DNA of 64,000 nt from Escherichia coli (GTDB lineage Bacteria > Pseudomonadota > Gammaproteobacteria > Enterobacterales > Enterobacteriaceae), in NCBI RefSeq assembly GCF_041248615.1, contig NZ_CP158427.1, one strand, 5' to 3'. Positions 60,001 through 63,000 of this stretch are shown piece by piece. Numbering within the stretch: the stretch's first letter is position 1; the number at the start of each line of letters is the position of its first letter. A program made the position numbers.

Positions 60001-63000
60001 CAGACATATTGCCTCCATTGGGTCTTATGGGTGAAACTGTATCACTCATTTGACCCAGATTGAATGTTTTTATCTGGATATTTAAACAGGTTTATTGTTA
60101 GGTAACGCACGTTGGCCACGCTGGAGCGTCTTCTGGGCCTGCTGTCGGCCTTTGAGGTCGTGGTATGGATGACGGATGGCTGGCCGCTGTATGAATCCCG
60201 CCTGAAGGGAAAGCTGCACGTTATCAGCAAGCGTTACACTCAGCGCATTGAGCGACATAACCTGAATCTGAGACAACATCTGGCAAGGCTGGGACGGAAG
60301 TCACTGTCGTTCTCAAAATCGGTGGAGCTGCATGACAAGGTCATCGGGCATTATCTGAACATAAAACACTATCAGTAAGTTGGAGTCATTACCGGTTCTC
60401 TTTGTCTTTTAGTGATTCTATAAACCTCATTACGTCTGAATATAAAAATCTATTATTTGATTTATGTGGCTCATGAGGTTGTGGGATGGTCTTGTTTTTG
60501 AATGTGCCAGTTTTCTTAATGGCAAAGATTAATTCACCTTCTGTTATTCCTAACATTTCAGCAAATGTTTTTGCTTCTATAGTTACTGACTTCATTTAAT
60601 TAACTCTCATGGTATCGATTTTCTTTACCGGCATCTTTAACAATGGTGCTCGTTTCTAGTGTTGCTGCGGTACGCTTCATCATCGTCTGCGGGGCGGTTG
60701 CGATAGTGAAGGAGCTGCCGGGCGTGAGCAAATCTATCAGGCGCTGGCCGCTGATAATCTCCATCCGTTCACTGGCAATACTGACAGATTTTGAACCTGC
60801 GCCGGTTTTCCCGGTATGGCAAAACAGACCGCGACAGTTATGACGTTTAAGCAACTTCTCGAACTCCTGTACGTGCTGTAAAGCAATATGGCCGCGATAG
60901 CGTTTAGCCTGAATAAGATAGCGATATTTTCCTATTATTACCTGGCCGTCAATGCCTCCATCGCCGGTATAGCGTTTGTTTCTGATGGTTCTGAAGCCAT
61001 GCGCGGCTTTGTTGAATAAATCGAACTTTTGCTGAGTTGAAGGATCAGATCACGCATCTTCCCGACAACGCAGACCGTTCCGTGGCAAAGCAAAAGTTCA
61101 AAATCACCAACTGGCCCACCTACAATAAAGCCCTCATCAACCGTGGCTCCATAACTTTCTGGCTGGATGATGAAGCTATTCAGGCCTGGTATGAGTCGGC
61201 AACGCCTTCATCACGGGGAAGACCTCAGCGCTATTCTGATCTCGCCATCACCACCGTTCTGGTCATTAAACGCGTGTTCAGGCTGACCCTGCGGGCTGCA
61301 CAGGGTTTTATTGATTCCATTTTTACACTGATGAATGTTCCGTTGCGCTGCCCGGATTACACCAGTGTCAGCAAGCGCGCAAAGTCGGTTAATGTCAGTT
61401 TCAAAACGTTCACCCGGGGTGAAATCGCGCATCTGGTGATTGATTCCACCGGGCTGAAGGTCTTTGGTGAAGGCGAATGGAAAGTCAAAAAACACGGCAA
61501 AGAACGCCGTCGTATATGGCGAAAGTTGCATCTGGCCGTTGACAGCAACACACATGAAATCATCTGTGCAGACCTGTCGCTGAACAATGTGACGGACTCA
61601 GAAGCCTTCCCGGGTCTTATCCGGCAGACTCACAGAAAAATCAGGGCAGCATCGGCAGACGGCGCTTACGACACCCGGCTCTGTCACGATGAACTGCGGC
61701 GTAAGAAAATCAGCGCGCTTATCCCGCCCCGAAAAGGCGCGGGTTACTGGCCCGGTGAATATGCAGACCGTAACCGTGCTGTTGCGAATCAGCGGCTGAC
61801 CGGGAGTAATGCGCGGTGGAAATGGACAACAGATTATAACCGTCGCTCGATAGCGGAAACGGCGATGTACCGGGTAAAACAGCTGTTCGGAGGTTCACTG
61901 ACACTGCGTGACTACGATGGTCAGGTTGCAGAGGCTATGGCCCTGGTACGAGCGCTGAACAAAATGACGAAAGCAGGTATGCCTGAAAGCGTGCGTATTG
62001 CCTGAAAACACAACCCGCTACGGGGGAGACTTACCCGAAATCTGATTTATTCAACAAAGCCGCCATGCGCTTCAAATCCTTCCAGCAACAGTTCTTCAAA
62101 CACAAAAGGATCAATTTTCCTCAGGTAGTTAATTTTTTGTGGGAAGCCCGGCAACGTCTTTATGCGCTCCAGCACCCGCCGCGCACTTTGCTGCTTCCTT
62201 TTGTGTCGTCGGTTGCGTACTGAACGCCGGAAGAATACAACGGCAAACAGTGCGATGGCGCTGCAAGCCCATAGAATAAGGTTTTCTGTAGTGGGGAAGG
62301 GGAACATGGTGATAGTGTGCTTTCTGTGGGTAAAGAAAAGGGCGGTTAAACCGCCCTGGTGTTTAGCGACGGCTGTAAACCTGCCACGAAGCGCTGCCTG
62401 ACTGATTTTGGCAAATCCGCCCGTAAAGTACGGTGCCGGTCGAGTAGCGGGCGCCATTCAGATAGCAATAGCCGCTGGATTGCAGCAGTTCGTTGCGCAG
62501 CTTTTCTTCCTGCTTTGATAGCCGGGACTCCGCAGACTGCAAACGAACGGATAATTCGTTAATCTGGCGTTGCTGGTTATTCATCTGGCTCTGCATCGCA
62601 TTACCTTTATCTTGGCTGACGCAACCAGTTAAGAGAGCTGTACAGGCTAATGCACTTAATATAATTTTTTTCACGTTGGCTCCTTAAATTGAGATTATTC
62701 CTAGCCCGCCTATAAGCGAACTTTCCCGTATTTACTTATGATCTGGCTTATCATCGACTGGTTACTTCCACCTTCGCCATTATCCGGGCATTCATTAAGA
62801 AAAGCCTTCCTGGCATCCCTCGTGTGGTTGGGTAAAAAGCCGTGCTTGTTCTTTTTAACGATATTGAAGAAAGCAGCTTCAGCACTGTTACACTCGCTTC
62901 CGCCGCTATCGCCGGTGAGCTTGCCCGCCATGCACATAATAACTTTGCAGGGATCTTCAGCATGGCTGGCAGGAAGATAAAGCAGACTACCAGCTGCTAT

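What the first reader, a model, noticed from the sequence alone, without database searches (positions are those of the whole stretch)
60389..62307. Mrr-type endonuclease-domain membrane protein split by IS903, followed by a small HTH-like ORF
Seen: IS903 copy B (61005..62061) is flanked by the 9-bp duplication GCCATGCGC. The minus-strand sequence on either side reconstructs one reading frame encoding an N-terminal transmembrane helix and a C-terminal Mrr-like nuclease core (GDGGIDG…QAKRY). A 68-aa ORF follows 5 bp downstream on the same strand. Inference: a two-gene defence-like or membrane-nuclease module inactivated by the insertion; together with the truncated dcm and the IS1 remnant this is an insertion-sequence graveyard of decayed DNA-modification and restriction functions.
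Basis: partly seen in the sequence, partly recalled or inferred. Interest (0 to 1): 0.55.

Follow-up and report, generated by a model that had tools for sequence, protein, structure and literature searches.

The report
IS903-split IncN plasmid mrr gene
This is the already-annotated "mrr" backbone gene of IncN resistance plasmids, which encodes a membrane-anchored nuclease-domain protein of untested function. It is knocked out here by a published IS903 insertion, and the small gene after it is the leftover front end of an Hha-type regulator gene cut off by an old IS1 fragment.

Summary
IS903 (61005..62061) has 18-bp inverted ends and a 9-bp duplication, GCCATGCGC. It splits one minus-strand ORF. 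Removing it restores a 642-bp gene that is 100% identical to the intact IncN gene WP_012561158.1 "restriction endonuclease" (known as mrr).

The protein has 213 residues: an N-terminal transmembrane helix, a strongly basic stretch, and a Mrr_cat PD-(D/E)xK domain (Pfam 1.2e-20) with invariant D94, D98, Q111 and K113.

None of this is new. The window is plasmid p14408_1 of E. coli NRZ14408. The same insertion and repeat are published for IncN[pMLST15] KPC-2 plasmids, which still conjugate. At least 23 sequenced plasmids carry it.

The "two-gene module" reading fails. The 68-aa ORF is a stump: related plasmids carry a 133-aa gene there (this N-domain fused to Hha), and homology stops exactly at the IS1 end, which supplies the stop codon.

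The nuclease lacks Mrr's DNA-binding domain, so it is not a true Mrr. Its roughly 1,600-member family was found only on conjugative plasmids and ICEs, often beside type IV secretion genes, and not in phages. The pOXA-48 homologue (Orf16) is dispensable by Tn-seq. The function is unknown; my best guess is an accessory nuclease acting on incoming DNA. Interest is low.

The parts
62062..62307 (-). mrr 5' fragment: codons 1-82 (transmembrane helix at residues 8-26, basic stretch at 27-44, first core helix with E71/E72). Includes one copy of the 9-bp target duplication (62062..62070).
   Evidence: In the window it reads on into the IS903 end (...EAHGGFVE*).
61005..62061 (+). IS903 (IS903B-type, IS5 family). 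1057 bp, 18-bp perfect terminal inverted repeats, transposase ORF at 61037..62005.
   Evidence: Annotated as IS5 family transposase in LT599826. Published as IS903 flanked by GCGCATGGC (PMC10790570).
60996..61004 (.). Second copy of the 9-bp target-site duplication GCCATGCGC (codons 80-82 of mrr).
60600..61004 (-). mrr 3' fragment: codons 80-213 plus the stop codon. Carries the catalytic core (D94, D98, Q111, K113) but no start codon, membrane anchor or first helix.
   Evidence: The AF2 model places the insertion at the end of helix 67-80, before strand 84-86.
60389..60595 (-). 68-aa ORF (orf207 / pN3_038). It is the 5' stump of a 133-aa gene (N-domain plus Hha domain). Its last codon and its stop codon come from the IS1 end.
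   Evidence: 88% nt identity to L008 and 78% to L007, ending at 60395..
60104..60393 (+). IS1 remnant of about 290 bp (3' part of insB plus the right inverted repeat at 60376..60393). The left boundary is taken from the literature and is approximate.
   Evidence: PMC5027574. Also present in IncN plasmids with an intact mrr.
62339..62357 (-). Terminator-like hairpin (8-bp stem, 6 G-C pairs) followed by TTTCTTT, 32 nt upstream of the mrr start codon.
   Evidence: A hairpin plus T-run sits at the same position, with different stem sequences, in L007, L008, L009 and L016.
62363..63758 (-). Upstream genes on the same strand: H-NS-like korB (63381..63758), a 114-aa ORF (63021..63365), kikA (62710..63024) and a 103-aa lipoprotein gene (62363..62674). 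They are divergent from traL, which starts near 63786 (+).
   Evidence: N3 gene table in PMC3347995. The same order is seen in L007, L008, L009 and L016.
58653..60013 (-). M.EcoRII (dcm-like) gene with its 3' end truncated. The last 26 aa are replaced by 17 aa read from IS26. The R.EcoRII gene is absent.
57833..58652 (-). IS26, forming the junction between the IncN segment and the IncF part of the plasmid.

Best explanation
The locus is the IncN1 backbone gene mrr, inactivated by a simple IS903 transposition into codons 80-82. It lies in an IncN (pMLST15-type, KPC-2) segment fused through IS26 to an IncF plasmid (p14408_1 of E. coli NRZ14408).

Shown:
- The intact gene encodes a 213-aa single-pass protein with a PD-(D/E)xK (Mrr_cat) domain.
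- The insertion separates the membrane anchor and the first core helix (E71/E72) from the D94/D98/Q111-x-K113 strands, so neither fragment can make a working enzyme.
- The insertion is inherited. The same junction is found in plasmids from six species in four genera, and those plasmids conjugate, so mrr is dispensable for maintenance and transfer.
- The downstream 68-aa ORF is not a partner gene. It is the remnant of a 133-aa N-domain-Hha gene that the IS1 fragment cut off in the IncN1 ancestor.

Inferred:
- The nuclease domain faces the cytoplasm (N-out/C-in, by the positive-inside rule).
- Function, at roughly 40% confidence: an accessory DNase tethered to the inner membrane that cuts foreign DNA as it enters a plasmid-carrying cell (a rival plasmid or a phage). 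It would help only when invaders are present. It would be expressed at a low level by read-through of a conserved terminator downstream of the korB-kikA genes.
- It has no DNA-recognition domain, so targeting would have to come from its location or from a partner protein.
For: Identity:
- The repaired gene has 0 mismatches in 642 bp to WP_012561158.1.
- It is named mrr in the N3 gene table (PMC3347995) and in PMC5027574.
- The window matches LT599826 at 100% over 25 kb.

Insertion:
- Repeat and inverted ends.
- Published as IS903 flanked by GCGCATGGC in conjugative IncN[pMLST15] plasmids (PMC10790570).
- 23 records carry the full 1919-bp structure at 99.8% identity or more, from E. coli, E. 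marmotae, K. pneumoniae, C. freundii, E. hormaechei and E. asburiae.

Domain and fold:
- Mrr_cat 1.2e-20.
- AF2 mean pLDDT 88 with an alpha-beta-beta-beta-alpha-beta core.
- Best Foldseek matches are the FokI cleavage domain, AF1548 (1y88) and Hjc.
- E71, E72, D94, D98, Q111 and K113 are invariant across 26 sequences down to 39% identity.

Topology:
- All 26 sequences have a hydrophobic 19-mer (KD 1.8-3.0). Flank charges are -2..+1 on the N side and +5..+10 on the C side.

Dispensability:
- The pOXA-48 homologue Orf16 is classed non-essential in both Tn-seq libraries (log2FC 0.71, adjusted p 0.25; PMC12365149 supplement).

Distribution:
- 2586 plasmid records have a homologue and 78% of them are typed conjugative.
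- No match in 50,697 phage records.
- All 12 neighbourhoods examined are conjugative plasmids or ICEs.

68-aa stump.
Against: - No experiment assigns any activity to this protein or to any family member. The "host defense" label in the pOXA-48 table is annotation only.
- PADLOC matches cover the catalytic domain only (PDC-S02 1e-9, mREase_IV 6e-8).
- Placement inside or beside transfer operons fits a conjugation-linked role at least as well as defence.
- The Foldseek E-values are modest (1e-3 or weaker).
- Roughly a quarter to a third of IncN1-type copies look truncated or split (a rough estimate). That could mean the gene is costly or nearly neutral rather than useful.
- Read-through expression past the terminator is inferred, not measured.
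Confidence: 0.8

Rival explanations
1. Conjugation-linked accessory. The membrane-tethered nuclease would work next to the type IV secretion system or its coupling protein. It might act as a DNA-level back-up to entry exclusion by cutting incoming strands in cells that already carry the element, or it might process DNA during transfer. It would be non-essential in standard matings.
For: - In Salmonella and Serratia ICEs with ICEclc/PAPI-type transfer genes, the gene sits between the DUF2859 gene and the coupling-protein gene. In Serratia its start and stop overlap both neighbours.
- In a Rhizobium plasmid it follows VirB9-11, VirD4 and VbhA-Fic.
- In IncN-type and Halomonas plasmids it follows kikA and the neighbouring genes, opposite virB1/traL.
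- KikA is needed for pKM101 pilus production and transfer (PMC12288468).
Against: - IS903-split IncN plasmids conjugate.
- Insertions in pOXA-48 orf16 do not change transfer.
- ICEclc itself lacks the gene at that position.
- In the Xanthomonas, IncL/M and Achromobacter elements it lies in maintenance or leading-type regions, away from transfer genes.
Confidence: 0.25
2. A genuine Mrr-type (Type IV, modification-dependent) restriction enzyme that cuts methylated foreign DNA.
For: - Mrr_cat domain with a D...QxK motif.
- PADLOC mREase_IV match at 6e-8.
- It sits next to the EcoRII restriction-modification genes in IncN1.
Against: - No Mrr_N or other DNA-binding domain. The N-terminus is a transmembrane helix in all 26 sequences.
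- The protein is about 100 aa shorter than the mREase_IV profile and matches only its C-terminal part (profile positions 166-291 of 317).
- The EcoRII adjacency is specific to IncN1 and absent from the other contexts.
Confidence: 0.1
3. A kil-type or addiction function: a potentially lethal nuclease held in check by plasmid repressors (KorA/KorB in IncN, an Xre protein in IncL/M).
For: - It lies downstream of korB in the region known for conditionally lethal kil and kik loci.
- A terminator directly upstream would keep expression low.
- An Xre gene overlaps its start in pOXA-48.
Against: - pOXA-48 orf15 (the Xre gene) and orf16 are both non-essential by Tn-seq, so losing the regulator is not lethal.
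- I first linked the gene to the essential orf20. That was wrong: orf20 lies beyond nuc.
- The gene is often truncated without any sign of a compensating antidote.
Confidence: 0.08
4. A catalytically dead or structural membrane protein that only retains the nuclease fold.
For: Weak matches to NA-iREase1 (inactive restriction endonuclease; 5e-4). There is no phenotype in Tn-seq.
Against: The acidic, Q and K motif residues are invariant across the family down to 39% identity. That pattern is the signature of selection for catalysis.
Confidence: 0.05
5. A two-gene nuclease-plus-HTH module.
For: The 4-nt spacing and shared strand. Weak HTH hints for the small ORF.
Against: The ORF is a truncated gene whose stop codon comes from IS1. 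The pairing is absent outside IncN-type plasmids.
Confidence: 0.02

Closest known systems
IncN1 backbone gene mrr (WP_012561158.1 'restriction endonuclease'; plasmids N3, R46, pKP96, NC_011383)
   Same: After in-silico removal of IS903, the DNA and protein are identical. The flanking gene order is the same: korB, orf, kikA, orf, mrr, orf207, IS1 remnant, ecoRIImet.
   Different: Here the gene is split by IS903. The EcoRII system is reduced to a truncated methylase gene, and the IncN segment is embedded in an IncF plasmid.
IS903-bearing IncN[pMLST15] KPC-2 plasmids (Yao et al. 2023, PMC10790570; pKPC_FCF3SP NC_021660 and relatives)
   Same: The same IS903 at the same site with the same 9-bp repeat (GCGCATGGC is the reverse complement of GCCATGCGC). 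Identity is 99.8-100% over the 1919 bp.
   Different: None at this locus. The paper reports the IS903 and its repeats; the passages I read do not say which gene it interrupts.
E. coli Mrr (Type IV modification-dependent restriction endonuclease)
   Same: The Mrr_cat PD-(D/E)xK catalytic domain, with a Q in place of the usual acidic residue in the (D/E)xK motif. The Pfam and PADLOC matches are restricted to this domain. The Q substitution in E. coli Mrr itself is from my own knowledge.
   Different: There is no N-terminal winged-helix DNA-binding domain. Instead there is a transmembrane helix and a basic juxtamembrane stretch. The protein has about 213 aa against about 300. It is plasmid- or ICE-borne. 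No modification dependence has been shown.
pOXA-48 / pCTX-M3 Orf16 ('Restriction nuclease', IncL/M)
   Same: Same family: 59.6% identity over residues 38-178, with an N-terminal hydrophobic helix (the same protein as P0056). It is also a backbone gene of an epidemic conjugative plasmid that carries a PLD-type Nuc as well.
   Different: Different neighbourhood: it follows an Xre gene and lies near resD and parAB rather than near transfer genes. It has been tested by Tn-seq and is non-essential for maintenance and conjugation.
Hha/YmoA family (for the 68-aa ORF's parent gene)
   Same: The full-length 133-aa homologues end in an Hha domain: PF05321 in the precomputed annotations, and a Foldseek match to Hha in 4icg at 49% identity.
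   Different: The window's ORF keeps only the non-Hha N-domain. That domain also exists as stand-alone proteins of about 65 aa and has only weak HTH_17/Cox-like hints.

Membership tests
Mrr_cat / PD-(D/E)xK nuclease superfamily | Significant match to the family profile | tested here: met
   Pfam PF04471 at 1.2e-20 over residues 62-172, covering the full model 1-115.
Mrr_cat / PD-(D/E)xK nuclease superfamily | Conserved catalytic residues (helix E, D, then (D/E/Q)-x-K) | tested here: met
   E71, E72, D94, D98, Q111 and K113 are invariant in 26 sequences down to 39% identity.
Mrr_cat / PD-(D/E)xK nuclease superfamily | Alpha-beta-beta-beta-alpha-beta restriction-endonuclease-like fold | tested here: met
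   AF2 model with pLDDT 88. Top Foldseek PDB matches are FokI, AF1548 (1y88) and Hjc, with probability 0.99-1.0 but E-values of only about 1e-3.
Mrr_cat / PD-(D/E)xK nuclease superfamily | Metal-dependent DNA cleavage | not testable with these tools
   Needs biochemistry.
Type IV restriction enzyme Mrr | N-terminal Mrr_N winged-helix DNA-binding domain | tested here: not met
   No such Pfam match. Residues 1-49 are one long helix containing a transmembrane segment.
Type IV restriction enzyme Mrr | Cleavage dependent on DNA modification | not testable with these tools
   No experimental data were found in the papers searched.
IS903 (IS5 family) simple insertion | About 1057 bp, 18-bp terminal inverted repeats, one transposase ORF, 9-bp target duplication | tested here: met
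   Annotated as IS5 family or IS903B in matching records.
IncN1 backbone gene mrr | Sequence identity and conserved flanking gene order | tested here: met
   0 of 642 mismatches and the same neighbours.
Two-gene nuclease + HTH module | The partner gene co-occurs with the nuclease gene across homologues | tested here: not met
   The partner appears only in IncN-type plasmids, as part of a 133-aa Hha fusion. It is absent in the 8 other contexts.
Hha/YmoA family (68-aa ORF) | Hha domain (PF05321) | tested here: not met
   The window ORF ends before the Hha domain: Pfam finds nothing. Full-length relatives have the domain.
HTH_17 / excisionase-type winged helix (68-aa ORF) | Significant profile or fold match | tested here: inconclusive
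   HTH_17 best E 0.034 in 2 of 13 members and Phage_Cox 0.1. PADLOC mad1 4.5e-4. The AF2 N-domain has pLDDT 45-67. No PDB sequence hit.
Known anti-phage defence systems (PADLOC) | Full-length match to a defence protein model | tested here: not met
   Only the C-terminal nuclease part of PDC-S02, mREase_IV and ZorD models is matched.

The most novel reading that the evidence does not exclude
The family of about 1,600 proteins with a transmembrane helix, a basic stretch and a Mrr_cat domain would be a nuclease specific to conjugative elements. It would sit at the inner membrane, next to the DNA-entry or transfer machinery, and cut incoming DNA as it enters (rival plasmids or ICEs, possibly phage). 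That would be a plasmid-borne, location-targeted barrier that needs no sequence or modification recognition. Epidemic IncN and pOXA-48 plasmids carry it.
Probability: 0.25. Interest if true: 0.6.

Novelty: already known. Interest (0 to 1): 0.17.

Why it matters
For this window, little. The gene, its name, the IS903 insertion with its direct repeats, the orf207 ORF and the IS1 remnant are all in the literature or in RefSeq annotation. The insertion is mainly a lineage marker of the IncN[pMLST15] KPC-2 plasmids.

Two points may be useful:
- orf207 is a truncated N-domain-Hha gene. That corrects a "hypothetical protein" carried in more than a thousand plasmid records.
- The so-called mrr is not an Mrr. 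It belongs to an uncharacterised membrane-anchored nuclease family found only on conjugative elements, including two of the most important carbapenemase plasmid types. Its role could be tested with simple genetics, because natural knock-out and intact plasmids both exist.

Tried and rejected
1. I first took the essential Xre regulator orf20 of pOXA-48 (Tn-seq and CRISPRi papers) to be the gene overlapping the nuclease homologue. From that I built a "repressed toxic nuclease" idea. Supplementary Table S1 showed the homologue is Orf16, preceded by Orf15, and both are non-essential. Idea rejected.
2. I looked for the gene in the ICEclc T4SS deletion study. ICEclc has no gene between orf71178 (DUF2859) and iceD4, so no knock-out data apply.
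3. NCBIfam gave only a sub-threshold SLATT_3 match to the membrane helix (E 0.014, 15 bits against a cut-off of 45). I treat it as noise.
4. PHROGs: one weak match to a family of unknown function (4e-5). tblastn against phages: nothing.
5. A PDB sequence search with the family profile gave no hit at E 0.01 or better.
6. Literature searches for "pOXA-48 + mrr" and for a membrane-bound plasmid Mrr found nothing relevant. Two ICE papers mentioned restriction endonucleases only in their methods or discussion.
7. Structure prediction of the 133-aa Hha fusion gave a confident Hha domain only. The N-domain stayed at low confidence, so the HTH question remains open.
8. I did not run the expensive genome or metagenome locus scans. 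The 12 neighbourhoods and the plasmid and phage BLAST counts were enough for the verdict.
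Full report
**1. The observation**

The sequence is as described.
- An IS903 element of 1057 bp occupies 61005..62061.
- It has perfect 18-bp inverted ends, GGCTTTGTTGAATAAATC, and a transposase ORF on the plus strand.
- The 9-bp direct repeat GCCATGCGC lies at 60996..61004 and 62062..62070.
- Removing the element and one repeat copy joins 60600..61004 to 62071..62307 on the minus strand. The result is a 642-bp ORF of 213 aa.
- The duplicated bases are codons 80-82 (Ala-His-Gly).
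- The 68-aa ORF (60389..60595, minus) begins 4 nt after the stop codon.

**2. What the gene is**

- The repaired ORF is identical, base for base and residue for residue, to WP_012561158.1 "restriction endonuclease" of the IncN plasmid NC_011383.
- In the published gene table of IncN plasmid N3 this gene is called mrr. It lies in the order traL / korB / orf / kikA / orf / mrr / pN3_038 / EcoRII met / EcoRII (PMC3347995).
- Another paper uses mrr as an IncN1 backbone marker. It calls the 68-aa ORF orf207 and describes the 290-bp IS1 remnant between ecoRIImet and orf207 as shared among IncN1 plasmids (PMC5027574).
- That remnant is also present, with the same sequence, in NC_011383, whose mrr is intact.

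**3. Where the window comes from, and whether the insertion is known**

- The last 25 kb of the window match plasmid p14408_1 of E. coli NRZ14408 (NZ_LT599826) at 100%.
- That plasmid is IncF-type. It carries an IncN segment with blaKPC-2, joined at IS26.
- The full 1919-bp structure of the finding occurs at 99.8-100% identity in 23 further plasmid records. They come from E. coli, E. marmotae, K. pneumoniae, C. freundii, E. hormaechei and E. asburiae.
- Yao et al. [quoted passage not shown] GCGCATGGC is the reverse complement of the repeat seen here. They obtained transconjugants from such plasmids.
- So the insertion is a single ancestral event and a published lineage marker. It also shows that mrr is not needed for plasmid maintenance or transfer.

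**4. The protein**

- Pfam finds Mrr_cat over residues 62-172 (1.2e-20, full model length) and no other domain.
- A search of 5.8 billion proteins found 1631 relatives, mostly 170-220 aa. Sources that name them call them only "restriction endonuclease".
- In an alignment of 26 relatives, reaching 39% identity, these residues are invariant: Y61, R63, P67, F70, E71, E72, G82, R87, N88, Y91, G93, D94, G96, D98, G99, Q111, A112, K113, R114, Y115, F140, H142, T143, G144, T146, S164, G165, L168. That set includes the E...D...QxK motif of the PD-(D/E)xK fold.
- Every sequence has an N-terminal 19-residue segment with Kyte-Doolittle hydrophobicity of 1.8-3.0. The N-side flank is neutral or acidic, and the following 20 residues carry net charge +5 to +10.
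- By the positive-inside rule (established knowledge) the nuclease domain faces the cytoplasm. This is an inference.
- AlphaFold2 with this alignment gives a confident model (mean pLDDT 88). It has one long helix at 7-49 and then an alpha-beta-beta-beta-alpha-beta core.
- The best solved-structure matches are the FokI cleavage domain, the Mrr_cat protein AF1548 (1y88) and archaeal Hjc resolvases. Probabilities are high but E-values are only about 1e-3.
- The IS903 insertion falls at the end of helix 67-80. It separates the anchor and the E71/E72 helix from the D94/D98/Q111/K113 strands.

**5. It is not a true Mrr**

- E. coli Mrr and the PADLOC mREase_IV model have an N-terminal DNA-binding region. 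The match here covers only profile positions 166-291 of 317.
- The N-terminus here is a membrane helix.
- No defence-system model matches at full length. NCBIfam has no model for the protein.
- "Mrr" here describes a catalytic domain. It is not evidence of modification-dependent restriction.

**6. The 68-aa ORF is a stump**

- Homologues of the ORF are few and closely related. Some carry an Hha domain.
- In IncN2/3-like plasmids the gene directly after the nuclease gene encodes 133 aa. The first roughly 66 aa correspond to the window's ORF and the remainder is an Hha/YmoA domain (L008 5727-6128; L007 5653-6054).
- Nucleotide homology between the window and these loci (88% and 78%) runs from the 3' end of mrr through the small ORF. 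In the alignment to L008 it stops at 60395, after ...KDKEN.
- The next bases are the IS1 right end, GGTAATGACTCC... (60376..60393). It supplies the last codon (CGG) and the stop codon (TAA).
- The predicted structure of the 133-aa protein matches Hha in the H-NS/Hha complex 4icg (49% identity) for its C-terminal half.
- The N-domain also occurs as stand-alone proteins of about 65 aa. It shows only weak hints of an excisionase-type helix-turn-helix: HTH_17 at 0.034, Cox at 0.1, PADLOC mad1 at 4.5e-4, and pLDDT in the 60s.
- The IS1 fragment therefore destroyed an Hha-type regulator gene in the IncN1 ancestor. The small ORF is not a functional partner of the nuclease gene.

**7. Genomic context of the family**

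I examined twelve neighbourhoods.
- In IncN1, three IncN-like plasmids and a Halomonas plasmid (43% identity), the gene is the last or second-to-last of a same-strand row. The row starts with an H-NS-like gene and is divergent from virB1/traL.
- In Salmonella and Serratia ICEs with ICEclc/PAPI-type transfer genes it lies between the DUF2859 gene and the coupling-protein gene. In Serratia it overlaps both. ICEclc itself lacks it there.
- In a Rhizobium plasmid it follows virB9-11, virD4 and vbhA-fic. In Agrobacterium it lies between fic and umuDC.
- In the Xanthomonas plasmid it follows kfrA.
- In the IncL/M plasmids it follows an Xre gene near resD and parAB.
- In the Achromobacter element it lies in a region that also carries a Lar anti-restriction gene and a KfrA-type gene.
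- In the Sphingobacterium element a coupling-protein gene lies about 6 kb upstream.
- tblastn finds the family in 2586 of 72,556 plasmid records, of which 78% are typed conjugative. It finds none in 50,697 phage records.
- The family is therefore specific to conjugative elements, with variable neighbours. It is a stand-alone accessory gene.

**8. Experimental evidence from a homologue**

- In pOXA-48 the homologue is Orf16 ("Restriction nuclease / Host defense", annotation only), preceded by Orf15 (Xre) (PMC12365149, Table S1).
- Tn-seq classes both as non-essential before and after conjugation. For orf16 the log2 fold change is 0.71 and the adjusted p is 0.25.
- Together with the conjugative IS903-split IncN plasmids, this shows the gene is dispensable for the element's own propagation in laboratory conditions.
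- It also argues against a toxin held in check by the adjacent regulator.

**9. Expression**

- A terminator-like hairpin (8-bp stem, 6 G-C pairs) with a T-run lies on the minus strand at 62357..62339. This is between the lipoprotein gene and the mrr start.
- A hairpin plus T-run is found at the same place, with different stem sequences, in four other plasmids including the distant Halomonas one.
- I infer that mrr is expressed weakly by read-through. This has not been measured.

**10. Mechanism and rivals**

- Shown: the identity of the gene, its inactivation, the fold and motif, the likely membrane anchor, the restriction to conjugative elements, and dispensability.
- Inferred, about 40%: a cytoplasm-facing DNase at the inner membrane that acts on foreign DNA as it enters and helps only when invaders are present.
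- The main rival, about 25%, is a non-essential role next to the transfer machinery, for example DNA-level exclusion.
- A true modification-dependent Mrr (about 10%), a kil-type toxin (about 8%) and an inactive fold (about 5%) are less likely. The reasons are given with each rival.

**11. Verdict**

- It is partly wrong: there is no two-gene module, the product is not a true Mrr, and the IS1 remnant is ancestral and hit an Hha-type gene.
- The feature itself is already known and annotated, and the insertion is published. Interest is low.
- The residual interest lies in the uncharacterised family, which is carried by epidemic IncN and IncL/M plasmids.

Noticed in passing
window 60389..60595 (-); L008 5727-6128; L007 5653-6054: The IncN1 "hypothetical protein" orf207 is the IS1-truncated 5' part of a 133-aa gene that fuses a roughly 66-aa N-domain to an Hha/YmoA domain. 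In L007 the gene caller annotated only the 73-aa Hha part, although the full 133-codon frame is open.
   Followed up: yes
window 62339..62357 (-); L007 ~4965-4990; L008 ~5037-5060; L009 ~4952-4980; L016 ~7961-7990: A G+C-rich hairpin followed by a T-run sits directly upstream of the mrr start in five plasmids. The stem sequences differ (GGGCGG/CCGCCC, GGGGC/GCCCC, GGCCGG/CCGGCC). This suggests a conserved terminator or attenuator insulating mrr from the korB-kikA genes.
   Followed up: partly
window 63381..63758 (-): The 125-aa KorB/H-NS-like protein appears to contain two tandem copies of the H-NS C-terminal DNA-binding motif (…NTWTGIGKRPAWL… and …NTWSGTGRRPTWL…). No obvious N-terminal oligomerisation domain is present.
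   Followed up: no
window 58601..60049 (-) and IS26 at 57833..58652: The M.EcoRII gene is cut by IS26 just after the GNSVVVPV motif. It loses 26 C-terminal residues and gains 17 IS-derived ones. The R.EcoRII gene is absent, so the IncN segment carries at most an orphan methylase that may be inactive.
   Followed up: partly
window 31316 and 34941..34958: A second pair of IS903 terminal repeats lies 3.6 kb apart.
   Followed up: no
plasmid records H83-H87: Many IncN-type plasmids carry another recurrent mrr allele that matches only residues 57-213 at 100% identity. It lacks the membrane anchor. Independent truncations of this gene seem common.
   Followed up: no
L014 (pOXA-48-type plasmid) 8643-9206; L004 8745-9308: The IncL/M plasmids carry a PLD-family Nuc nuclease gene about 3 kb from the membrane-anchored Mrr_cat gene. 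The IncN backbone also has a nuc gene according to the literature (truncated in the pMLST15 lineage; PMC10790570). Both epidemic plasmid groups would therefore pair the two kinds of nuclease gene.
   Followed up: no
L005/L006 3530-5576; L017 6531-8540: In Agrobacterium and Rhizobium plasmids the nuclease gene directly follows a vbhA-fic (FicTA-type) pair, with a gap of 14 nt. In L017 this pair lies downstream of virD4.
   Followed up: no
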